A stretch of DNA of 32,000 nucleotides. Origin: Candidatus Saccharimonadota bacterium (GTDB taxonomy: Bacteria; Pseudomonadota; Alphaproteobacteria; CAJXXZ01; 1604HC). This document shows, one piece after another, positions 6,659 through 22,264 of the stretch. Location: contig NZ_CP043314.1 in assembly GCF_008189525.1 (NCBI RefSeq), forward strand, positions 360,001-392,000, given 5' to 3'. Numbering within the stretch: the stretch's first letter is position 1; every line of letters starts with the position of its first letter. Under the pieces are notes generated by a model, which was given only the letters and a program-made list of their open reading frames with translations, ran no database searches and was not told the DNA's origin. The translations under genes were made by a program, and so were the position numbers.

Positions 6659-7909
6659 ATGAAAAATAAATATATATCCAGAAATACAAACATAATGTAC
6701 ATAAATAATGTGAAGAAATTTCTAAGACCAAAAGGATTTTCTATGCTTGAAATGGCAATAGTTTTAGTAATATTTGGTTCATTAAGTAGCATTATGTTTA
6801 GCTCGATGCAAAAGTATGTAAAGTGGCAAAGAAGTGAAGTAACTAAATCGAATATGGAAAAAATCTTAAAATCACTTGGAACTTTTGTTTCGTCACGTGG
6901 CAGATTACCATATCCATCCACACCTTCAAATAAGTTTCCTGACCCTGATAATCCAGTTACTGTAGCTCCAGGGTTTGAATACCCTTGGCCTAAAAATGAT
7001 AAAGAATGGGGAAATATATACTTATATTCAGGCATAGTTCCATTCAAAACATTACAAATACCTGAGCACATGGCCAAAGATGGGAATGGTAGATATTTTA
7101 CATACGTTATGGACACTACATTAGGCGGACGAACATATGTAGAATCCGTTTCACCAAATGATGACAGAATAAAATATGAATATGATTCTGATGATAAAGA
7201 TATAAAAATATCTAGCTTTTGCTTTGTAAGACACTATGGAGATCCTACAGAAATAACCAAAGGTGAAATAACCAAAGGAGTTGGAGATTCAGGGTATTTC
7301 AAGCATATTGGACTTAATTTCAGAGCATCTCTAGTAGATTTAGTGCATTGGAGAGAAAAAATTAGTTTGATTGAAGACAAAACTGTATACGCATATCAGC
7401 TTATGTATCCAGAATATATACCTCAAAACAATCTTGCTACTAAATATTTTATAAGTGAAATGTACCAACATGACAATGATCTCTATAGACAACACCATAG
7501 ACCATATGTTCTAAACAAAGCTTTCTCTGCTAAAATGAGCTCTTCACACAAAGGGCTTGTTGTAAGGGATACAATAGCTGTAGTACTCATAAGTCACGGA
7601 GATTCAGGTGGATGGATAACACCAAATGGAACAAGGCAACCTTTAAAGGGAGATGTGTCAAGAGGGAAAAGATGTAATTCAAAGCATAATGGTTCTTTTT
7701 TTGAAACTGATATAGAAACCAAAAAAGATAAGAGTAAGATTTTCGATGATACTGTTTTATTTGTATCCAGATTCAATTTTGCAGCACTCTACGGAGGATT
7801 CTTATGCGAATCATTAAGTTCAAGCCAAAGACACGTACCTTATATACCTGCACCTCATATAGCTGATAAAATAGCTAAAAAACAAAATTTGACAGAACAT
7901 AATCAATAA
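6659..7909 (+). CDS. Large (416 aa) prepilin-type pilin-like protein
   Basis: The sequence RPKG|FSMLEMAIVLVIFGSLSSIMF has the same G/F..E signature as the upstream gene, followed by a GRLPYP segment. The remaining roughly 350 aa have no motif I recognise. Confidence 0.55.
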   Translation: MKNKYISRNTNIMYINNVKKFLRPKGFSMLEMAIVLVIFGSLSSIMFSSMQKYVKWQRSEVTKSNMEKILKSLGTFVSSRGRLPYPSTPSNKFPDPDNPVTVAPGFEYPWPKNDKEWGNIYLYSGIVPFKTLQIPEHMAKDGNGRYFTYVMDTTLGGRTYVESVSPNDDRIKYEYDSDDKDIKISSFCFVRHYGDPTEITKGEITKGVGDSGYFKHIGLNFRASLVDLVHWREKISLIEDKTVYAYQLMYPEYIPQNNLATKYFISEMYQHDNDLYRQHHRPYVLNKAFSAKMSSSHKGLVVRDTIAVVLISHGDSGGWITPNGTRQPLKGDVSRGKRCNSKHNGSFFETDIETKKDKSKIFDDTVLFVSRFNFAALYGGFLCESLSSSQRHVPYIPAPHIADKIAKKQNLTEHNQ

Positions 7910-8086: not shown

Positions 8087-8815
8087 ATGTATATAGATGA
8101 ATGCAGAAAATGGATGTCATTTGTTATTGAGCTAGCATTAAAAACAAAGAATCATGAAGAAGTACCAGTAGCATGTGTTATTTTGAATAAAACACTTACA
8201 AATCAAAGCTCATCATCATTAAATAAATTACAGCTAAAATCTACAGAGCCTGACAGAAAAACATTTCACAATAACAAAAACCAAAAGTATAGCGAATGTA
8301 TATCTCAAATTAATTCCAATGAATATAAAAATACTAATGAGTATAATAACGAGTATAAATATGAATTAGTATCTAAATCTTCAAATCAAGTACAGCTAAA
8401 ACAAAATCCATTAAAGCATGCAGAATTAATAGCACTTGAGCTAGCTTTGAAAAAATTAAATACAAAGTATCTTACAAACTGTATTTTAATAACAAACTTA
8501 GAGCCTTGCGATATGTGCATGAAGGCTATAGAGCTATGTAAAATAAAAAGAGTTATCTTTGGAGCGTATAGAAATAATTTAAACCAAAATAAATTAGATA
8601 ACGATCTACAAGAAAATCATAAAGAAAGACATATTAGTAACATGCAAAATAATTCACAAAAACATAATACTAATTATCATTCTTGCAAGAGTCATAACAA
8701 TTACCATGATTATCACTATAAAAATCACTCTAGTCATCATATTGGTGGAGTAATGGAAACTGAATGTAAAAAAATACTTCAGAATTTCTTTAAAAAAATC
8801 AGAGAAAGAAATTAA
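8087..8815 (+). CDS. tadA: tRNA-specific adenosine deaminase TadA with two large low-complexity insertions
   Basis: The deaminase zinc motifs are present: EVPVACVIL, KHAELIALE (HAE) and LEPCDMCMKAI (PCxxC). They are followed by VIFGAY and a C-terminal GGVMETECKKILQNFFKKIR. Confidence 0.75.
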   Translation: MYIDECRKWMSFVIELALKTKNHEEVPVACVILNKTLTNQSSSSLNKLQLKSTEPDRKTFHNNKNQKYSECISQINSNEYKNTNEYNNEYKYELVSKSSNQVQLKQNPLKHAELIALELALKKLNTKYLTNCILITNLEPCDMCMKAIELCKIKRVIFGAYRNNLNQNKLDNDLQENHKERHISNMQNNSQKHNTNYHSCKSHNNYHDYHYKNHSSHHIGGVMETECKKILQNFFKKIRERN

Positions 8816-9090
8816 TATCTTACAAAAAGACTAACAAAACATATAAGGATCATTTTCAAACCAAAATAAAATATGGGTAAATCCATTTAACCTAGTAAAA
8901 TCAAGCGTTAATTCTAATTAATTTTATGCTTTTGTCTTAATTTCTAACTTAATTACATAAAAACAATAGATTATTTTGCTTTGTTTTTAAAAAGTTTATT
9001 GCAAATCTTTCTTATATTTTATTTTTTTGAAACATTATTTTGACAGTTTTTTAAAAGTTAAATGTTTTAACTAATTTGAGAGGAAAAAAA

Positions 9091-11109
9091 ATGACAGAAA
9101 GTATACAAAAAACTTTATCAAGAATAAGACCTCCTAGAGTTAAGATAACCTATGATGTAGAGACAGGTGGAGCTATAGTAAAGAAAGAGCTCCCTTTCAT
9201 AATGGGAGTAATATCTGATCTTTACGGACACCAGGAAGAAAAAATAGATCTTAAAGATAGAAGATTTATTTTTATAGATAGGGATAATTTTAACGATGTT
9301 ATGTCTTCTATCAAGCCTATGCTAAAAATCAGAGTCAAAGACACACTAGCAAAGAAGGCACCAGATTCTAAGAAAGCTAAGAAATCTGATGGAAAAGAAG
9401 AGAAAGATTCAAAGAAAGCAAAATCTAATGATGCTGCATCCGAAGATGCAATGATTCCTTTAGAAATAAAGTTCGAAAGCATTGATGATTTTCATCCAGT
9501 ATCAATAGTAAACAAAATTCCTGAATTGAATTCTATGATTAAAGATCACGTATCTTTGGTAGATTTACTTTCAAAAGTAGATGGAAACGAAGATTTAGAT
9601 AAAATTCTATGCGATGTAGTAAAATCTGAAGATAAAGCTAAACTAATAGCAGAATCAGCAGATATTTCTAAAGCAACTCCAGAAATAGAAAAAATCATAA
9701 AAGAAGGAAAAATGATCCTACAAGAAGGAGAAACTGTAGACCCTGACAAGCTTCTAAAAGCTAAAGAAATTGTCGCAGCTTTTGTAAGATCCTTGGATGA
9801 AGCTAAAGAGTTGAGTAACTCCTATCCATACATAATGAATAGAATTTCAAACATAGACCAACAAATCTCCTTGCAACTTGACGAAATAATTCACAATCCA
9901 GAGTTTCAGAAATTAGAAGCTTCTTGGAGAGGGCTACATTATTTAGTCATGAATTCTGAAACTGGTGAAAGATTGAAAATCAGAGTCTTATCTATTACAA
10001 GAGATGAATTACAATCTGATCTAGAAAATGCTATAGAGTTCGATCAAAGTAAATTATTCAAAAAAGTTTATGAAGAAGAATATGGAACATTGGGTGGAAT
10101 GCCTTACTCTTGTCTTCTAGGTGATTTCTACGTAGGAAGAAGTCCTGTAGATGTTTCTTTAATAGATCATATAAGCACTGTTGCTGCTGCTGCACACACA
10201 CCATTCCTTGCTGCTGCTGATCCATCTATGTTTGATTTGTCTGCATTCACAGAACTTCACTACCCAAGAGATTTGAAAAAAATCTTCGAAAGTTCAGAAA
10301 TGATCAAGTGGAACAGCTTTAGAGACAAAGAAGACTCTAGATACGTAAACTTGTTCTTACCAAGAGTTCTTGTAAGACTTCCTTACGGTGATGATACCAT
10401 TCCTGTAAAAGAATTTTCTTACAATGAAAAAGTCGATGGACTAGATAACTCTAAGTTCTGTTGGGGTAACCCAGCTTTTGCGATGGCTTCAAGAATTACA
10501 GATGCATTTGCAAAATTCGGTTGGACTGCTGCTATCAGAGGTGTAGAAGGTGGTGGATTAGTAGAAAATCTACCTGCATACACATTTAAGACACAATATG
10601 GTGACATAGCTCTTAAATGCCCTACAGAAACAATCATAACTGACAGAAGAGAAAAAGAATTAAGTGATTTAGGTTTCATAACAATTTGTCATAACAAAGG
10701 AACAGATAAAGCTGTATTCTTTGGATCACAAAGTACACAAAAACCAAAAGAGTACAACCTTCCAGAGGCAACTTCAAATGCGTTGATCTCTTCAAGATTG
10801 CCTTACATGCTTAATGTATCTAGATTTGCTCATTATATAAAAATGATCATGAGAGAAAAAATAGGTTCATTCGCCTCTGCAGAAGATATAGAAACATACT
10901 TGAACACATGGATTGCACAATATGTATTCTTATCAGACACAGGAAGCCAAGGAATAAAATCCAGGTATCCATTAAGAGAAGCAAATATAAAGATCAAAAC
11001 AAATGAATCTGATCCAGGATCTTATAGCGCTATTATATACATGAAACCTCACTTCCAGTTGGAAGAACTAACCGTTTCATTAAGACTAGTAGCTAAGATT
11101 CCTGCTTAA
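9091..11109 (+). CDS. tssBC: Type VI secretion sheath, fused TssB(VipA)-TssC(VipB) single polypeptide
   Basis: The N-terminal part carries the TssB signature: [40 protein letters not shown] and [13 protein letters not shown]. The remainder carries TssC signatures: [84 protein letters not shown] and SLRLV. The frame is continuous. ATG 9091 is preceded by GAGAGGA, and the ORF is open from TTG 9076. Confidence 0.85.
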
Positions 11110-11129: not shown

Positions 11130-11759
11130 ATGATAGCACAAAACAATAATATGGGCTCAAATCTAGGAAAGTTAGAAAATAACAGAATACAGTATGGAGA
11201 TGGATCGAGCGTTGATGGTATAAACCAACTCGAAAGACAAGATTCTGGTTCTGATCTTCTAATCAGAATGGGAGAAGATACAAAAAAAGAAGTTAGTAAT
11301 ATTGAAAAATACACATGCTTCCATCCAATGAAGAGTTACCACGAATCTTTCACAGGATCAGTTAACAAAGATATGTCTAACCCAAACAAAACATTGAGCG
11401 GAAAAGTAATATCAAGTTACATAGAAGTTGTAGTTCCAGTTGGTGTGTTTGCCATGTCTATGGAAGAAACTGGTTTAACAAATACAGGTATTAAATTCAT
11501 AGAAGTAGTTAGAACACAAATCGTAAAGAAAGAAAGAGTTATTTCTGAATCCAGAATTTTCGTACAATCTTTCGTACTTGGAAGTGCAGGTCAGCTAGGT
11601 GATCACGTTTGGTTACAACTTGGATTTAATGAAGTTCATAAACATATAAACCAATATGACTCAGCAGGAAATCCTACTGGAAGCTTTGGATATGCTTATT
11701 CAAATGAAAAAGGAACCTTGTTGGCAGACGGTAAACTAGACCCTTACAGTCCTTCATAA
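11130..11759 (+). CDS. hcp: Hcp/TssD-like T6SS tube protein, divergent, with a roughly 40-aa N-terminal extension
   Basis: The gene starts 20 nt downstream of tssBC. DLLIRMGEDTKKE aligns with the Hcp N-terminus (DMFIKIGDVKGES). IFVQSFVLGSAGQLGDHVWLQLGFNEVHKHINQYDSAGN aligns with VLVSSVSTGGSGGEDRLTENVTLNFAQVQVDYQPQKADG of P. aeruginosa Hcp1. Confidence 0.6.
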   Translation: MIAQNNNMGSNLGKLENNRIQYGDGSSVDGINQLERQDSGSDLLIRMGEDTKKEVSNIEKYTCFHPMKSYHESFTGSVNKDMSNPNKTLSGKVISSYIEVVVPVGVFAMSMEETGLTNTGIKFIEVVRTQIVKKERVISESRIFVQSFVLGSAGQLGDHVWLQLGFNEVHKHINQYDSAGNPTGSFGYAYSNEKGTLLADGKLDPYSPS

Positions 11760-12077: not shown

Positions 12078-14039
12078 TCAACTTATATTCTTCAAATAAT
12101 TATAAGAATTTAACACCCATGTGTTTTCTTTCAAATAATTGCTTATAGAATCAATAACAGAAGGGCCGATTCCTTTTATATTTATATTTGCTAATTTTTC
12201 TTTATCTGTAAAAGTTTCTATGAAATTTTCTAAGGTAATTAAATTCTTTGCAAGCAAAGTACTTTGCCCATATCCAACATTAGGAATACATAAAGCAAAA
12301 ATCCATCTATTAAGCTCTATTCTTGATTGAGAGTTTATACTATTCAATATATTTATAGCTACTTTGCTGCCCAATATATTTTTTACCTGACTATTATTTT
12401 GAAGTATAAGTTCTCTTAATTTTTTAATTACATCTTCTTGATTGTTCACTAAACCAATTTCAAATAATTTTCTAATATTTTTCTCACCCAGATTAGATAT
12501 ATTTAGTGCTTTTTTAGAAACAAAATGCTCTATTTGTAATATTTTCTGTTCACTACATTGAGGATTAATGCATTTCAACATAACACTTTCTCTTACTAAT
12601 TCACTATTGCAAGATGGGCAAATTACAGGAAGTATAAACTTTTCTTTTCCAGTATTTTTCTTAGACATTACGTGTGGAATTACATCTCCAGCTCTAGCTA
12701 TAATCACCTCATCACCAATTCTGTAATCTTTGTTAATAACTTCTTGAACATTATGCAAAGAAACTTTCTTAACTTCTACTCCATCTATAAAAATCGGATC
12801 TAAAATGGCTACAGGGCTTATTGCTCCACTTTTTCCAATTTGCATAACTATATCTACAATAGTTGTGGAAGAATTTCTCGGAAAAAACTTACAAGCAAAG
12901 CAAAATCTAGGTGCTGTGCTATGAAAACCTAATTCATCCCAGCTCTTCAAGCTATTCACTTTCAGAACAACTCCATCTACAGGGTAGGGTATATCGTTTC
13001 TAGACAGCTCTGTTTTCTGAAAAGCTTCTTTTGCCTCACATAAATCATCACAAATGACATATTTCATTGTATTAAATCCCAATTTGGATATTAAATCTAT
13101 CTGATTAGAGTACTTAGATCTTAAATTCTGTACAAACCCATGGGGAATAAATTTCAATTTGTAATTTGCTATAAAATCCATTTCTTTATTTCTTAAAATA
13201 CCAGCAGTAGCATTTCTAGGATTCTTAAATTCCTTTTCTATAGAGTTATTAACTTTATTAAAAGACTCAAAATCCATAAAAATTTCACCTCTAATCTCAA
13301 ATTCATCAGGCATAGTAATTTCTTCTGTATCCATTATATTTACACTTACTGCACCTGAGCTTTCATCTTTTGTATCTTTGTTTATATCTATATTTTTATC
13401 TTCTTCTGCACTTTCTACTATTTCTACTAAAGCTTCTATTTTTACTGGAATTTCTTGAGGTATGTTTTCTATATATTTAGCTTGTTTAGTAATATCCATT
13501 CCATAAGTTCCATCTCCTCTTGTTACACATAAACTCAGTTTCCCTTTTGTATAACTTAATGACGCAGATATTCCATCTATCTTATGTTCCAAAACCATTT
13601 CTGGCTCTAATTTTATAGAATTAAGTATTTTTTTATAAAACTTCTCCATAGAATCAGTTCCGTACCCATGGTCCAGAGAAAGCATAGGAAATTTATGCTT
13701 AACTTCTTTGTCTTCTATATGTCCGATTTTATTTAAAGGGCTGTTTTTTTGCTTCCCTATTTTTTCTTCTATTTCTTGCAATCTATATTTTAATAAATCA
13801 TACGATGTATCAGCAATTAAAGGCTTACCATAAGCATATTTTTTGTCATAAAACTTTACTTTCTTAGAAACTTCTTTCCACTCTTGTTTCAACTTACCTA
13901 AATCTCCGCCTAAACCTTCTTCGGTTATTTTGCCTATAGGTTTATCTTCAACAAATTTACTCACTTTAGATGTATTTTCTAAGTTTTTATCTTTTTTTAA
14001 AACACTACTTTCATCAATTTCATCAAATAAACTTCCCAT
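12078..14039 (-). CDS. ligA: NAD-dependent DNA ligase LigA (N-terminal extension, internal insertion, no BRCT domain)
   Basis: The adenylation motif EHKIDGISASL (KxDG) is present, followed by TRGDGTYG, VDGVVLK and the Zn finger CPSCNSELVRESVMLKCINPQC, then HhH repeats (IPNVGYG, IKGIGPS). The protein ends right after the HhH region. Confidence 0.9.
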   Translation of the reverse strand: MGSLFDEIDESSVLKKDKNLENTSKVSKFVEDKPIGKITEEGLGGDLGKLKQEWKEVSKKVKFYDKKYAYGKPLIADTSYDLLKYRLQEIEEKIGKQKNSPLNKIGHIEDKEVKHKFPMLSLDHGYGTDSMEKFYKKILNSIKLEPEMVLEHKIDGISASLSYTKGKLSLCVTRGDGTYGMDITKQAKYIENIPQEIPVKIEALVEIVESAEEDKNIDINKDTKDESSGAVSVNIMDTEEITMPDEFEIRGEIFMDFESFNKVNNSIEKEFKNPRNATAGILRNKEMDFIANYKLKFIPHGFVQNLRSKYSNQIDLISKLGFNTMKYVICDDLCEAKEAFQKTELSRNDIPYPVDGVVLKVNSLKSWDELGFHSTAPRFCFACKFFPRNSSTTIVDIVMQIGKSGAISPVAILDPIFIDGVEVKKVSLHNVQEVINKDYRIGDEVIIARAGDVIPHVMSKKNTGKEKFILPVICPSCNSELVRESVMLKCINPQCSEQKILQIEHFVSKKALNISNLGEKNIRKLFEIGLVNNQEDVIKKLRELILQNNSQVKNILGSKVAINILNSINSQSRIELNRWIFALCIPNVGYGQSTLLAKNLITLENFIETFTDKEKLANINIKGIGPSVIDSISNYLKENTWVLNSYNYLKNIS

Positions 14040-15099: not shown

Positions 15100-16284
15100 C
15101 TACGCCAAGTTTACTTTGCAGTATCCATTTTTACTATTCAACCAACTTAACTCTCCTAAAATACAATCTTCTCCTAATAATGCATCAGGTCTTGATTCTT
15201 TCTTCAAATTTAACTTTATTGAAAAATTCAAATCAAATGGAACATAAGATTTAATCAACTTTATAATTTGACTCCTAAGCCTTTTTCCATGCATAAGTTT
15301 TTTATACAAATCCAAGCTGTGTATAGTAATTAGTATATCTATTCCATATGTATTATCCAAAAACCTCTTTCCTAAGAAAGTAGTTCCAAAACTTCTTCCT
15401 GGAGCATCACTATACCCAAGACAATACCCTTTATTTTCCACATGCCTTCTAGTAACTTTGTCAAATGAAAACACATCCTCATCGTTTATATATTCCCATT
15501 TCCCCTTAAACTGAAAAACTGCCACATCACACTTATAATTTAAAAATGATAAAATTATCCTTTTTAATTGAAATTTATTATGCTTTTGTTTCCAAAATGC
15601 TGCAGACACATATCTAGATATATTATTTATATAAGAATTTACATAAGGTTTTGTAGAGCCTATAGATTCTAGAACTTTATTAATAACATGATCTCTCTTG
15701 TTTTGAGGATTACATATTGATACATTTCCCCTCTGTGCTATTTTGTAAGTATTTTCTATTATCTTATTATTAAAAATATCTAAGAAATCTTTGAAAACAT
15801 GATCTTTTTCTTTTCCATCATTAATAAATTTATGTATATAGAATAATGGCAAAGCACCCTGTATTCCGAGCATACTTACATTATTAACTATCATTTCTAT
15901 TCTTTTTCTTTTCTTATCGTACGATATAGATTTTATATCACTAGAGTTTACGCTCATTTCAACAGAACCTTTAAAAACTATTTCTTTTATATCTTTCGGG
16001 TTCTTTTTTTGATAACTTTCCAAGAGAAAGATTGCTTGGTGTACGGAAAAATTCCAAGGAGATTTAATCAAATTATACAAAACAAATTGACTGTCAAAAT
16101 AATGATAAGTTTTTAATTCATTTTTTGAATCCATGCCTGAATCTATGCCTGAATCTAACTTATCTAAGTAAAACTTACTTTCAGAATTTAATTTATTTTG
16201 CTCCATCTCTAACTCACTTTCTAATTTACTTTCTAATAATTTCAGTTTTGTAACATTTAAATATTTAATATCTTCTGAGCTCAC
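15100..16284 (-). CDS. tssG: Type VI secretion baseplate protein TssG (ImpH/VasB family)
   Basis: WNFSVHQAIFLLE matches the TssG N-terminal FxFFQAxRLLE-type motif, and the C-terminal ALLGEDCILGELSWL matches the LG..LG..W tail. The GTG start follows directly after the tssF TAA stop. The N-terminal extension contains a 12-bp tandem duplication (16133-16156, encoding DSGIDSGMDS). Confidence 0.75.
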   Translation of the reverse strand: MSSEDIKYLNVTKLKLLESKLESELEMEQNKLNSESKFYLDKLDSGIDSGMDSKNELKTYHYFDSQFVLYNLIKSPWNFSVHQAIFLLESYQKKNPKDIKEIVFKGSVEMSVNSSDIKSISYDKKRKRIEMIVNNVSMLGIQGALPLFYIHKFINDGKEKDHVFKDFLDIFNNKIIENTYKIAQRGNVSICNPQNKRDHVINKVLESIGSTKPYVNSYINNISRYVSAAFWKQKHNKFQLKRIILSFLNYKCDVAVFQFKGKWEYINDEDVFSFDKVTRRHVENKGYCLGYSDAPGRSFGTTFLGKRFLDNTYGIDILITIHSLDLYKKLMHGKRLRSQIIKLIKSYVPFDLNFSIKLNLKKESRPDALLGEDCILGELSWLNSKNGYCKVNLA

Positions 16285-18081
16285 TTAATTCTGAACTTCC
16301 CATTTTTTCCACGGTACATCATCATTAGATGACCCGAAAACTCTCATTTCTAATAGCGTATTGAAGCCTACATTGTTGCTTATGACACAAGACAAAACTT
16401 TTCCTAGCATAAAATGCTCTGCAACTTCATCCTTTATTTTTAAGTCAATAACAATTTTAGGAACTGACCCTGTCCAAGGAGAATTAGGCATCCTAGCTAT
16501 TGTTTTCTTGTGCTTTATCCCTAAAATTACCTCATTATATTTCTGATTGAAATTAAAATTATATATTTCTAGCATTTTCCTTAAAGGTTTTATATCTGAG
16601 TTATTAATAGAAAGATCCACATGGTTCAAAGATAAATTAGATATTATTTCCCATTGAGATTGCCCTCCGTACTGAGGATCTACTTGTTCTGTCGGTTTTA
16701 AAATATTAACACAAGAAAGGTTATCTATTTTATTAAACTGAAAACTTGTCTTGTAATTTATACTTTGAGCTTTATCTCTATTTGTACATAATAAATCAGC
16801 ATAAACAGTTTCTTCACTATATTCCTCTACATCCAAATCTTCATCAATAAAAGAAATCATCATTTTTGATCCTTTATCTTCTTTTTCTCTTCTTGAATAC
16901 CAAAAAGATCTTTCAGAGCCATTTTCTATGTCTGAAAATGAAAAGTAGGGATAATATACCTTTCTATTATTCTTAAAAGAACTCTTGTAACTAAATACTT
17001 CTTTTATAGTGTGTATTTCTGAATTTGAATCAAATCTATCAGACATGATTTTATATGAATCTTTTTCGTAATCTAATCTCAATGGCTCAGACTTCTGTTC
17101 AAACAAATTTACTGCTGGGCAACAATTATTCATAAGAATATTATCACTCATTGGAAGAAGTGAAGGCTTTGTCCTTTTGCTAAGAGGGATAAGAAAAGCT
17201 ATATCTCCTTTTATTTGTTCTAAATTAACATTTAAATTATTAATCTCGAAATTTAAAAATAAAAACTTATGCGGGAATATATTATATTCCATCAAAAGCC
17301 TATGAGAATCAGAAGTATATATAGGTCTATCTATGAGAGATTCATCCTCTCCAAATCCTTTTGGAGTTATTACACCTATTTTACTCTTTTGTAATAATTT
17401 CCCAGATTTATCAGATAAATAAATCGGAGTAGGTTCAGTTGGGTGATACCCTAAAATATGCTCGTATAAACTCTTAGCAGAAAAAAGATCACTATTTATA
17501 TAAAAAACTACATTAGAATTATTTTTGAAACTTTTCATATTTTCTGTTTCAAGTGAAAGACACCAATAATTCTGAGATTCTAATAATTCTGTATCTTCGG
17601 TCTTCATATAACTTATTTTCTTAGGATTAAAATCATTAACTGTTATTTCTTGAGAAGTAATAAAGTCACATAAAATATCTTCCTTATTATTAGCGCTGAT
17701 TTTTGTATGCTTAGGGATTTTAATATTCTTCTGATTAGATATATTTTTCTTACTTTCAAAATGAACTATTGTGCATGATGGAAACGGAGCCATAAATTGT
17801 GGATACAAAGAATCTAATAAAAAAGAGCTCAGGAAAGATAACTGGTCATCTATTTGCCATTGCAGCCTAGCATCAAAAAAAGCAAAAGACTCTAATATTC
17901 TTTGTACATGCGGGTCATCGACCTTATTTTCAGCAAAATTCAACTCCCTTGCTACAGAAGGGTATTTTTCTGCAAACTCATTTCCTTTTTTCAAAAGATA
18001 ATCCATAGATTTTCTAAAATGTGGAAACAGATTATTTAGATCTGGTGTAGATTTCATAGGCAAATTTAAAAATAAAATCAT
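16285..18081 (-). CDS. tssF: Type VI secretion baseplate protein TssF (ImpG/VasA family)
   Basis: The sequence YLLKKGNEFAEKYPSVARELNF..DDPHVQRILESFAFFDARLQWQIDDQL..LLDSLYPQFMAPFPSCTIVHF is the canonical TssF N-terminal signature. The length of about 590 aa fits the family. An alternative start exists at ATG 18057. Confidence 0.85.
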   Translation of the reverse strand: MILFLNLPMKSTPDLNNLFPHFRKSMDYLLKKGNEFAEKYPSVARELNFAENKVDDPHVQRILESFAFFDARLQWQIDDQLSFLSSFLLDSLYPQFMAPFPSCTIVHFESKKNISNQKNIKIPKHTKISANNKEDILCDFITSQEITVNDFNPKKISYMKTEDTELLESQNYWCLSLETENMKSFKNNSNVVFYINSDLFSAKSLYEHILGYHPTEPTPIYLSDKSGKLLQKSKIGVITPKGFGEDESLIDRPIYTSDSHRLLMEYNIFPHKFLFLNFEINNLNVNLEQIKGDIAFLIPLSKRTKPSLLPMSDNILMNNCCPAVNLFEQKSEPLRLDYEKDSYKIMSDRFDSNSEIHTIKEVFSYKSSFKNNRKVYYPYFSFSDIENGSERSFWYSRREKEDKGSKMMISFIDEDLDVEEYSEETVYADLLCTNRDKAQSINYKTSFQFNKIDNLSCVNILKPTEQVDPQYGGQSQWEIISNLSLNHVDLSINNSDIKPLRKMLEIYNFNFNQKYNEVILGIKHKKTIARMPNSPWTGSVPKIVIDLKIKDEVAEHFMLGKVLSCVISNNVGFNTLLEMRVFGSSNDDVPWKKWEVQN

Positions 18082-21748: not shown

Positions 21749-22264
21749 TTAAGCTTTGTATGGCATTAAAGCTAGAAATCTTCTTTCTTTTATAGCCTTA
21801 GAAAGTCTTCTCATTTCTTTAGCACTAAAGCCTAATATCTTTGGAGCTAAAATACGACCATGAGGGGTTGTCATTCTAGAGGTATCTCTTAGATAATCTA
21901 TTTTATTCTCAGCAAATCTATTTCTAGGGTCTCTGATTGGATCAAATAAACTTTGAACTTCTGTCAAAGGTCTTTCTTTCTTGTCCAGTAATCTGATCAT
22001 GTATCTGATCAAATCCTTGTTTAATTTTAATGTGTTTACAAGTTTTTTTGATTGTTCAGAAGGAAGATTAAAGTCCATAAGAATATAATGTCCTCTTATG
22101 TTTCTTTGTATTTCATATTTTAGCTTGTTCAGTCCAAAATTTTTCCTTGATACTTCTTTTCCGCCTAAAGAGTCAATTTCTTTTGAAATTTGATCAACTA
22201 CTTTTTCAGCTTCTTCTTCTGATATGTTTTGTTTCAGTACACAGTTTAACCTGTAATTGCGCAA
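21749..22264 (-). CDS. rpsF-rpsR: Ribosomal protein S6 fused in frame to ribosomal protein S18
   Basis: Residues 1-93 (MRNYRLNCVL..EEAEKV..GGKEVSRKNFGLNKLKYEIQRNIRGHYILMDF..LIRYMI) follow the S6 pattern. Residues about 113-171 (RNRFAENKIDYLRDT..HGRILAPKILGFSAKEMRRLSKAIKERRFLALMPY) follow the S18 core pattern. Confidence 0.75.
   Translation of the reverse strand: MRNYRLNCVLKQNISEEEAEKVVDQISKEIDSLGGKEVSRKNFGLNKLKYEIQRNIRGHYILMDFNLPSEQSKKLVNTLKLNKDLIRYMIRLLDKKERPLTEVQSLFDPIRDPRNRFAENKIDYLRDTSRMTTPHGRILAPKILGFSAKEMRRLSKAIKERRFLALMPYKA

What the first reader, a model, noticed from the sequence alone, without database searches (positions are those of the whole stretch)
9091..11109. Single-chain T6SS sheath: TssB (VipA) and TssC (VipB) encoded as one polypeptide
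One uninterrupted 672-codon frame carries a complete TssB signature in about the first 190 residues and a complete TssC signature from about residue 250 to the end. There is no stop, frameshift or recognisable linker domain between them. The junction lies at roughly nt 9630-9770. In the T6SS classes I know (proteobacterial type i, Francisella IglA/IglB, Bacteroidetes type iii), the sheath is made of two separate interdigitating proteins. Single-chain sheaths are characteristic of phage tails, pyocins and eCIS/T6SS-iv. A covalent fusion would make the TssC N-terminal helix internal; ClpV uses that helix to recognise contracted sheaths. This suggests a different recycling mode or a single-shot apparatus. 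The TssB part also carries a Lys-rich insertion ([34 protein letters not shown], nt 9349-9451). I cannot tell from memory whether such fusions have been catalogued.
Basis: partly seen in the sequence, partly recalled or inferred. Interest (0 to 1): 0.8.

Follow-up and report, generated by a model that had tools for sequence, protein, structure and literature searches.

The report
Natural single-chain TssB–TssC T6SS sheath
The gene really does encode both proteins of the type VI secretion sheath as one chain; this fusion is old and common in symbiont and marine bacteria, seems undiscussed in the papers I could search, and occurs in gene clusters that lack the usual sheath-recycling ATPase ClpV.

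Summary
Confirmed. Window 9091-11109 (+) is one 672-codon gene. It consists of a complete TssB (residues 1-186), a 7-residue linker and a near-complete TssC (residues 194-672). Both curated equivalog HMMs pass their cut-offs. The protein is 100% identical to one from Candidatus Nesciobacter abundans, a Holosporales endosymbiont of diplonemids.

It is not an assembly artefact. All 120 best database clusters carry the same three domains in one chain, and so do 115 of the 150 best 50%-identity representatives. The fusion occurs in Holosporales, SAR324 and marine Gammaproteobacteria, including the isolate Thalassomonas sp. RHCl1. AlphaFold2 (pLDDT 85) reproduces the TssB/TssC protomer. Only the two inter-subunit arms and the Lys-rich loop are disordered.

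The TssC N-terminal helix, which ClpV binds in Vibrio, is retained internally. ClpV homologues lie near tssBC in 42 of 64 unfused loci and in none of 25 fused loci. Published inventories list no tssH for N. abundans.

I found no paper describing natural TssBC fusions. The next ORF (11130-11759) is a divergent Hcp, which published accounts call missing.

Verdict: a new variant of a known kind, of moderate interest.

The parts
9078..9084 (+). Shine-Dalgarno-like GAGAGGA, 6 nt upstream of the ATG
   Evidence: read directly from the sequence
9091..11109 (+). tssBC: single 672-codon gene for a fused T6SS sheath protomer (stop codon included)
9091..9648 (+). TssB (VipA) part, residues 1-186, complete through its C-terminal helices
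   Evidence: PF05591 and TIGR03358; alignment with seven stand-alone TssB proteins; PDB TssB chains 9n4v_B and 5n8n_A
9136..9165 (+). N-terminal arm (residues 16-25), the expected inter-protomer 'handshake' strand
   Evidence: pLDDT below 50 in the monomer model. Its role is inferred from published VipA/VipB structures (my own knowledge).
9349..9450 (+). Lys-rich low-complexity insertion (residues 87-120) in a TssB loop
   Evidence: disordered in the model, residues 94-116 below pLDDT 50; the loop is ~5 residues in seven unfused TssB proteins; the measured loop segment spans 3-67 residues among 89 fused proteins
9649..9669 (+). 7-residue linker DISKATP joining the end of TssB to the start of TssC
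   Evidence: the corresponding segment varies from 10 to 113 residues across the family
9670..9708 (+). Retained TssC N-terminal helix ([12 protein letters not shown]), equivalent to LLDKIIxEGKM of unfused TssC and to the ClpV-binding helix of V. cholerae VipB
   Evidence: modelled as helix 197-205 with high confidence. ClpV binding to this helix in Vibrio is my own knowledge.
9670..11106 (+). TssC (VipB) part, residues 194-672
   Evidence: TIGR03355, PF05943 and PF18945; 9n4v_A aligned over query residues 200-671; TM-score 0.87-0.96 to solved TssC chains
11059..11106 (+). C-terminal arm (residues 657-672), the expected second handshake strand
   Evidence: pLDDT below 50 in the monomer model; role inferred from published sheath structures (my own knowledge)
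11130..11759 (+). Divergent Hcp (inner-tube protein) with a ~40-residue disordered N-terminal extension
   Evidence: same position as Pfam-positive Hcp in other fused loci; hhalign 64% probability, E 6.5e-5; AF2 core pLDDT 80-90; top Foldseek PDB hits are overwhelmingly Hcp chains, best E 3.8e-10, TM 0.71
15100..16284 (-). tssG (baseplate)
   Evidence: PF06996, E 8e-38
16285..18081 (-). tssF (baseplate)
   Evidence: PF05947, E 6e-102

Best explanation
The gene encodes a single-chain sheath protomer of a proteobacterial-type (T6SS-i) secretion system in the endosymbiont Candidatus Nesciobacter abundans.

Shown here:
- It is an end-to-end fusion of a whole TssB and a whole TssC.
- Only the floppy C-terminal tail of TssB and the floppy N-terminal tail of TssC have been replaced, by a 7-residue linker.
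- The predicted fold is that of the TssB/TssC heterodimer.

Inferred:
- The free N-terminus (TssB arm) and free C-terminus (TssC arm) still make the inter-subunit handshake that knits the sheath together.
- The joint lies in the surface domain 3, where the two ends already sit side by side. The protein should therefore polymerise around the divergent Hcp tube encoded next door, on the TssEFGK baseplate, and contract like a normal sheath. The 1:1 stoichiometry is hard-wired.

Origin: the fusion is old. It is shared with other Holosporales and with a marine gammaproteobacterial/SAR324 clade. A few lineages have secondarily split it. Other origins are possible elsewhere in the TssC tree.

Recycling (inferred, about 0.5): these systems have no dedicated ClpV. 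Contracted sheaths would then be disassembled by a general unfoldase such as ClpB, as in Francisella, or turned over slowly.
For: - Both equivalog HMMs pass their cut-offs in one frame.
- The junction maps residue by residue against seven unfused relatives.
- The protein is identical to an NCBI protein of N. abundans, and all 120 top clusters are fused.
- 115 of the 150 best 50%-identity representatives are fused.
- Single ORFs were verified in 16 species-representative genomes, including Thalassomonas sp. RHCl1.
- AF2 gives pLDDT 85 and pTM 0.87. Only the two arms and the Lys-rich loop are disordered.
- Foldseek matches TssC chains at TM 0.87-0.96 and the contracted-state TssB chains at ~0.73.
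- TssF and TssG lie in the window, and an Hcp-fold protein is immediately downstream.
- Bootstrapped NJ tree: the gamma/SAR324 fused clade has 92% support and the Nesciobacter group 96%. The clade of all fused plus three nested unfused lineages has 56%. The nested unfused lineages fall inside fused-only clades in 95-99% of replicates.
- ClpV homologues are found in 0 of 25 fused loci against 43 of 65 unfused loci (Fisher p = 1e-9).
- Two complete fused clusters contain no clpV.
- The published inventory for N. abundans reads tssBCEFGIKLM, with no tssH.
Against: - There are no protein-level data. Cleavage in the linker, or internal initiation, would regenerate two chains. An AAGGA motif a few nt upstream of the ATG for Met206 lies inside the gene.
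- ClpV absence was tested only within 6-10 kb of tssBC and in this 32-kb window. No whole genome could be searched, and vgrG is also encoded elsewhere in some of these genomes.
- The ClpV association is phylogenetically non-independent, because it rests on essentially two clades.
- ClpV-less relatives with separate tssB and tssC exist (L015, L037, L004). The fusion is therefore not needed for life without ClpV.
- The tree is neighbour-joining on TssC only. Support for a single origin is weak (56%), and the larger unbootstrapped tree shows fused and unfused forms interleaved.
Confidence: 0.8

Rival explanations
1. The fusion is neutral. tssB and tssC are adjacent, co-oriented and encode obligate 1:1 partners whose joined ends are flexible and close in space. 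Loss of the stop codon is therefore tolerated and drifts to fixation. It has no consequence for firing or recycling, and ClpV loss is an unrelated trait of the same lineages.
For: - Linker length (10-113 residues over the measured segment) and composition are unconstrained.
- Secondary splits occur inside the fused clade, and Ca. Bodocaedibacter has separate genes.
- Fused forms appear in several parts of the wider TssC tree.
- The same window holds a second fusion of adjacent heterodimer partners, ribosomal S6-S18.
Against: - The fused state has persisted across deep divergence (~45-50% identity) in both free-living and symbiotic lineages.
- The co-distribution with ClpV-less clusters is very strong.
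Confidence: 0.35
2. One gene, two proteins. The fused reading frame yields separate TssB and TssC in vivo, either by proteolysis in the disordered linker or by internal translation initiation.
For: - The linker and the neighbouring segments are low-complexity and variable.
- An AAGGA motif lies a few nt upstream of the ATG for Met206.
Against: - Met206 lies inside the conserved N-terminal helix, which is internal to unfused TssC as well.
- That Met is not conserved among fused proteins.
- The window's linker is only 7 residues.
- No protease site or conserved motif is visible.
Confidence: 0.08
3. The open frame results from an assembly or sequencing error, or from gene decay in an eroding endosymbiont genome. 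It is not a functional gene.
For: - The genome is reduced and ~29% G+C.
- Low-complexity inserts are common in its proteins.
Against: - The same uninterrupted architecture occurs in more than 100 independent sequence clusters and in complete genomes.
- It is 63-68% identical to its Cytomitobacter-type orthologues over the full length, and many residues are invariant across the wider fused set.
- The structure model is confident.
Confidence: 0.01

Closest known systems
Azotobacter vinelandii TssB/TssC sheath (PDB 9n4v) and Pseudomonas aeruginosa H1 TssB1/TssC1 (5n8n)
   Same: These are the closest solved relatives. TssC of 9n4v aligns from its residue 21 to its end at 615 bits. TssB also aligns. 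The fold matches at TM 0.89-0.96. The nearest unfused genomic relatives have the same gene order, tssB-tssC-hcp-tssE-tssF-tssG.
   Different: In those systems there are two polypeptides encoded by two genes. Here there is one chain with a 7-residue joint, plus a 34-residue Lys-rich loop in the TssB part. The nearest unfused clusters carry clpV shortly downstream of tssB-tssC. Fused clusters do not.
Vibrio cholerae VipA/VipB with ClpV
   Same: The fold and domain plan are the same (TM 0.87-0.94 to chains of 3j9g, 5mxn and 5myu). The N-terminal helix of VipB that ClpV recognises has an equivalent here.
   Different: That helix is internal here rather than near a free N-terminus. No ClpV was found nearby or in the published inventory.
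Francisella IglA/IglB (T6SS-ii), whose sheath is recycled by the general chaperone ClpB
   Same: It is a precedent for a T6SS sheath that works without a dedicated ClpV in an intracellular bacterium (my own knowledge). The fold also matches (3j9o_B, TM 0.89).
   Different: IglA and IglB are separate proteins and are much more distant (31% identity to IglB over the Foldseek alignment). ClpB use in Nesciobacter is untested.
Single-chain sheaths of phage tails, R-pyocins, eCIS/PVC/Afp and T6SS-iv
   Same: The topology is the same: one polypeptide whose N- and C-terminal arms link subunits. The core sheath fold is shared.
   Different: The relationship is only remote (Foldseek E 1e-5 to 1e-3, TMq ~0.3, 8-12% identity). 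The protein described here is a T6SS-i TssB+TssC with the T6SS-specific domain 3. It is not a member of those families.
Ca. Bodocaedibacter vickermanii T6SS (Holosporales)
   Same: It has the same scattered T6SS layout, [tssG-tssF] and [tssB-tssC-hcp], an Hcp1-like gene downstream, and no tssH in its table.
   Different: tssB (513 nt) and tssC (1455 nt) are separate genes there.

Membership tests
TssB/VipA sheath small subunit (TIGR03358, PF05591) | Sequence matches the curated equivalog model above its cut-off | tested here: met
   140 bits against a cut-off of 97.25. Pfam gives 141 bits against 24. The match is in two stretches, split by the Lys-rich insert.
TssB/VipA sheath small subunit (TIGR03358, PF05591) | A separate ~17-20 kDa polypeptide encoded by its own gene | tested here: not met
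   There is no stop codon between it and TssC. One ORF runs from 9091 to 11109.
TssC/VipB sheath large subunit (TIGR03355, PF05943 + PF18945) | Sequence matches the curated equivalog model end to end | tested here: met
   647.5 bits against a cut-off of 271.5, covering model positions 8-473 of 473. Both Pfam domains are present.
TssC/VipB sheath large subunit (TIGR03355, PF05943 + PF18945) | Fold of solved T6SS sheath large subunits | tested here: met
   The AF2 model (pLDDT 85) matches 5n8n_B, 9n4v_A, 5urx, 3j9g and 3j9o_B at TM 0.89-0.96 (normalised to the target) and E 1e-27 to 1e-39.
Complete T6SS-i apparatus | Baseplate genes tssF and tssG | tested here: met
   PF05947 and PF06996 hits at 16285-18081 and 15100-16284.
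Complete T6SS-i apparatus | Inner-tube protein Hcp/TssD | tested here: met
   The ORF at 11130-11759 has no Pfam hit. Its position, profile-profile match and predicted fold all indicate Hcp.
Complete T6SS-i apparatus | tssE, tssK, tssL, tssM, vgrG and PAAR | not testable with these tools
   None is in the window. The published inventory lists tssBCEFGIKLM, vgrG and PAAR for N. abundans.
Complete T6SS-i apparatus | Dedicated sheath-recycling ATPase ClpV/TssH | tested here: inconclusive
   No ClpV homologue is in the 32-kb window or near 25 fused loci, against 43 of 65 unfused loci. The published inventory lacks tssH. The whole genome could not be searched.
Phage / pyocin / eCIS / T6SS-iv single-chain sheaths | Close sequence or fold relationship to gp18-, pyocin-, Afp- or PVC-type sheath proteins | tested here: not met
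   Only remote matches were found (E 1e-5 or weaker, TMq ~0.3, 8-12% identity), far below the T6SS TssC chains.

The most novel reading that the evidence does not exclude
Fused TssBC marks a large, old and so far undescribed class of T6SS-i, found in Holosporales endosymbionts, marine Gammaproteobacteria and SAR324. In this class the sheath is a single polypeptide and the dedicated ClpV recycling ATPase has been lost. These machines would then use another disassembly route (ClpB or proteolysis) or fire rarely. Metagenomic relatives that add WD40, FGE-sulfatase or other domains in front of TssBC would be further elaborations of the same single-chain sheath.
Probability: 0.35. Interest if true: 0.65.

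Novelty: new variant of a known kind. Interest (0 to 1): 0.5.

Why it matters
Every characterised T6SS sheath is described as a TssB/TssC heterodimer, and recycling models centre on ClpV pulling on the free N-terminal end of TssC. A natural, widespread and conserved single-chain sheath shows three things:
- The two-gene arrangement is not required.
- A covalent joint in domain 3 is tolerated.
- The whole clade appears to live without a cluster-encoded ClpV.

This makes two questions testable: what ClpV actually needs, and how ClpV-less systems reset. A cultured carrier exists (Thalassomonas sp. RHCl1), and the reverse experiment of fusing vipA-vipB is simple.

The finding also corrects the picture of the Holosporales T6SS. 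That system is the main candidate for host interaction in these symbionts and has been called tube-less. A divergent Hcp sits immediately downstream of the sheath gene.

For annotation, these proteins are currently labelled only 'sheath large subunit'. Presence/absence screens may therefore score tssB as missing.

Tried and rejected
- Assembly artefact or pseudogene: rejected on conservation.
- L056 (Acidisphaera): it first looked fused, but that was a spurious long frame in high-GC DNA. It has separate 174-aa and 499-aa genes.
- tblastn 'full-length' matches in Pseudomonas, Burkholderia, Acidobacteria and others: these are adjacent separate genes, not fusions.
- Internal start at Met206: rejected as not conserved and inside a helix.
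- First NJ tree with BLOSUM distances on 224 sequences: too poorly resolved to count origins.
- A Biopython bootstrap run timed out. I redid it with my own distance code.
- Searching for homologues of the 209-aa ORF alone found only the ORF itself. A profile of syntenic ORFs was needed.
- Walking beyond TssM with a TssM query in metagenomes found nothing. A TssK profile gave two complete fused clusters.
- Cluster-member look-up gave no taxonomy for the long metagenomic fusions.
- Literature: searches for TssBC, TssB-TssC and VipA-VipB fusion phrases, for COG3516/COG3517 with 'fus', for Holosporales T6SS and for 9N4V found only GFP fusions or nothing relevant. This library omits most subscription journals, so absence is not proof.
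Full report
**1.

The window is ~29% G+C. The frame 9076..11109 (+) is open. Homologues all start MxESxQ, so the ATG at 9091 is the start. A GAGAGGA motif lies 6 nt upstream.

The 672-residue product gives these hits:
- Pfam T6SS_VipA, E 3e-41
- Pfam VipB, residues 251-550, E 2e-127
- Pfam VipB_2, residues 559-670, E 9e-42
- NCBIfam equivalog TIGR03358 (TssB), 140 bits against a cut-off of 97
- NCBIfam equivalog TIGR03355 (TssC), 647 bits against a cut-off of 271, covering residues 209-671, which is model positions 8-473 of 473

The closest solved structures are the Azotobacter vinelandii extended sheath (9n4v) and P. aeruginosa TssB1C1 (5n8n). The TssC chain of 9n4v aligns from its residue 21 to query residue 200 onwards. 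The TssB chains match the N-terminal part.

**2. Where it comes from, and whether it is an artefact**

The protein is 100% identical to a protein of Candidatus Nesciobacter abundans, on a 616-kb contig. This organism is a Holosporales endosymbiont of diplonemids.

Evidence against an artefact:
- All 120 best 90%-identity clusters carry the three domains in one chain of 620-760 residues.
- In an exhaustive search of 50%-identity representatives, 115 of the best 150 contain both TssB and TssC. This ranking favours fused proteins, so 115 is a floor and not a proportion.
- Among GTDB species representatives I checked each locus for a single spanning ORF. Sixteen are truly fused: Holosporales, Holosporaceae and Caedibacter MAGs, other alphaproteobacterial MAGs, SAR324, Thiotrichales, Woeseiaceae, Algicola, Kangiella, Arenicella and the isolate Thalassomonas sp. 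RHCl1.
- The many Pseudomonas, Burkholderia, Acidobacteria and Planctomycetes matches are ordinary adjacent tssB and tssC genes.

An assembly error or pseudogene is therefore excluded in practice.

**3. Anatomy of the joint**

I aligned the protein with separate TssB and TssC from seven unfused relatives. The result is a clean end-to-end concatenation:
- TssB is complete through its C-terminal helices (to ~residue 186).
- Seven residues follow (DISKATP).
- TssC then starts at its N-terminal helix, [11 protein letters not shown]. Unfused TssC has LLDKIIxEGKM at this position.
- Only the floppy tails of the two proteins are missing.

Across 89 fused proteins the measured segment that spans the linker varies from 10 to 113 residues. 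It is rich in Ala, Lys and Asp.

The measured loop segment spans 3-67 residues among fused proteins, with a median of 11. It is a variable, disordered loop. It is not tied to the fusion.

**4. Structure**

AlphaFold2 with 89 homologues gives pLDDT 85 and pTM 0.87. The only low-confidence segments are:
- residues 1-3 and 16-25
- residues 94-116 (the Lys-rich loop)
- residues 657-672

From published VipA/VipB structures (my own knowledge), the N-terminal strand of TssB and the C-terminal strand of TssC are the arms that form the inter-protomer 'handshake' sheet. They would be ordered only in the polymer. Both ends are free in the fused chain.

Foldseek against the PDB puts solved T6SS TssC chains first (E 1e-27 to 1e-39, TM 0.87-0.96). 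Contracted-state TssB chains follow at TM ~0.73. Phage, pyocin, eCIS and CIS sheaths appear only at E ~1e-5 or weaker with 8-12% identity.

The protein is therefore a T6SS-i sheath protomer in one chain. It is not a relative of the classical single-chain sheaths.

**5. Context**

The window also holds tssG and tssF, scattered among housekeeping genes. The same scattered layout is reported for other Holosporales: [tssG-tssF] and [tssB-tssC-hcp].

The 209-aa ORF immediately downstream (11130-11759) has no Pfam hit and no sequence homologue other than itself. Several lines still identify it as Hcp:
- In free-living fused loci the gene in this position is a clear Hcp (PF05638, E ~1e-18 to 1e-19).
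- A profile of the Holosporales ORFs matches those Hcps (hhalign 64% probability, E 6.5e-5).
- Its AF2 model (core pLDDT 80-90) hits mostly Hcp structures (4w64_C, E 3.8e-10, TM 0.71).

The system therefore has a tube protein. This contradicts the statements that Hcp is missing.

**6. ClpV**

The helix that ClpV recognises in V. cholerae VipB (my own knowledge) is retained and is modelled as a confident helix.

I searched all fetched loci with a Pfam-verified ClpV:
- 42 of 64 unfused loci have a homologue within ±6 kb.
- None of 16 fused loci does (p = 8e-7).
- With the extra fused and unfused loci fetched later, the count is 0 of 25 against 43 of 65 (p = 1e-9).
- None is present in this 32-kb window.

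The unfused Pseudomonas loci (L010, L012, L059) carry clpV about 4 kb downstream of tssC. Two complete fused clusters run sigma-54 activator, TssBC, Hcp, TssF, TssG, TssK, TssL, TssM, TssA and then stop, without clpV. The published inventory for N. abundans is tssBCEFGIKLM, vgrG and PAAR, with no tssH.

Caveats:
- The comparison is not phylogenetically independent.
- No whole genome could be searched.
- ClpV-less relatives with separate tssB and tssC exist: Ca. Bodocaedibacter, with genes of 513 and 1455 nt, and L004, L015 and L037.

Loss of ClpV and the fusion characterise the same clade. A causal link is not shown.

**7. History**

I built a bootstrapped NJ tree of the TssC part for 57 sequences:

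| Grouping | Bootstrap support |
|---|---|
| Gamma/SAR324-type fused clade | 92% |
| Nesciobacter/Cytomitobacter group | 96% |
| All fused plus three nested unfused lineages | 56% |
| Nested unfused lineages falling inside fused-only clades | 95-99% of replicates |

The simplest reading is one or two old fusions followed by occasional re-splitting. A broader, unbootstrapped tree shows fused forms in other parts of the TssC tree as well, so more origins are likely.

Some metagenomic relatives add WD40, FGE-sulfatase, VWA-like or TIR-like regions in front of TssBC.

**8. Mechanism and rivals**

Best explanation (confidence about 0.8 for the core): the protein is a hard-wired 1:1 sheath protomer that assembles and contracts like TssB/TssC. 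The joint sits in surface domain 3. That the system runs without a dedicated ClpV is inferred, at about 0.5.

Rivals:
- A selectively neutral 'Rosetta-stone' fusion with no functional consequence (0.35; it overlaps with the core explanation).
- Processing or internal initiation that regenerates two chains (0.08).
- Artefact or gene decay (0.01).

The same window contains a second fusion of adjacent heterodimer partners, ribosomal S6-S18. This fits the neutral view for this genome. The TssBC fusion, however, long predates Nesciobacter.

**9. Novelty**

The sequences are public and are auto-annotated as 'sheath large subunit'. The papers on these symbionts do not mention the fusion. Phrase and COG-based searches found only engineered GFP fusions. 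The searchable library is incomplete, so an earlier description cannot be excluded.

I classify it as a new variant of a known kind, of moderate interest. The interest would rise if the ClpV-independent class is confirmed.

Noticed in passing
window 11130-11759 (+): The 209-aa 'hypothetical' ORF immediately downstream of tssBC is a highly divergent Hcp (tube protein) with a ~40-residue disordered N-terminal extension. Published accounts of N. abundans and Holosporales say Hcp/TssD is missing.
   Followed up: yes
window 21749-22264 (-): Ribosomal proteins S6 (residues 2-89) and S18 (~residues 115-171) are encoded in one 171-codon frame. This is a second fusion of adjacent genes whose products form a heterodimer in the 30S subunit.
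   Followed up: partly
P0183, P0191, P0172, P0125 and other metagenomic proteins of 900-1650 aa: These are fused TssB-TssC proteins with large extra N-terminal regions: WD40 beta-propellers, an FGE-sulfatase domain, and weak VWA- and TIR-like matches. Their organisms are unknown, and gene-call merging has not been excluded.
   Followed up: partly
L081 8114-9292; L088 1565-2953 (-); L022 3899-5305 (-); L029 1134-2546 (-): Free-living genomes with fused tssBC have a sigma-54 enhancer-binding protein immediately upstream of the cluster. Their clusters end after tssA, with no clpV.
   Followed up: partly
L004 1718-3778; L015 875-2947; L037 5932-8097: These are unfused tssB and tssC genes nested inside the fused clade. 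The TssC of L004 has a long Gly/Ser/Lys-rich N-terminal tail that resembles the linkers of fused proteins, as expected after a secondary split.
   Followed up: partly
window 8087-8815 (+) and 12078-14039 (-): Housekeeping proteins (a TadA-like deaminase and NAD-dependent DNA ligase) appear to carry Asn/Lys/Glu-rich low-complexity insertions. If so, the Lys-rich loop in TssB may reflect a genome-wide habit of this AT-rich endosymbiont.
   Followed up: no
window 6659-7909 (+): A 416-aa ORF has a weak N-terminal prepilin-type methylation motif (PF07963, E 7e-4) and no other hit. It may belong to the reduced T2SS/type IV pilus system reported for this organism.
   Followed up: no
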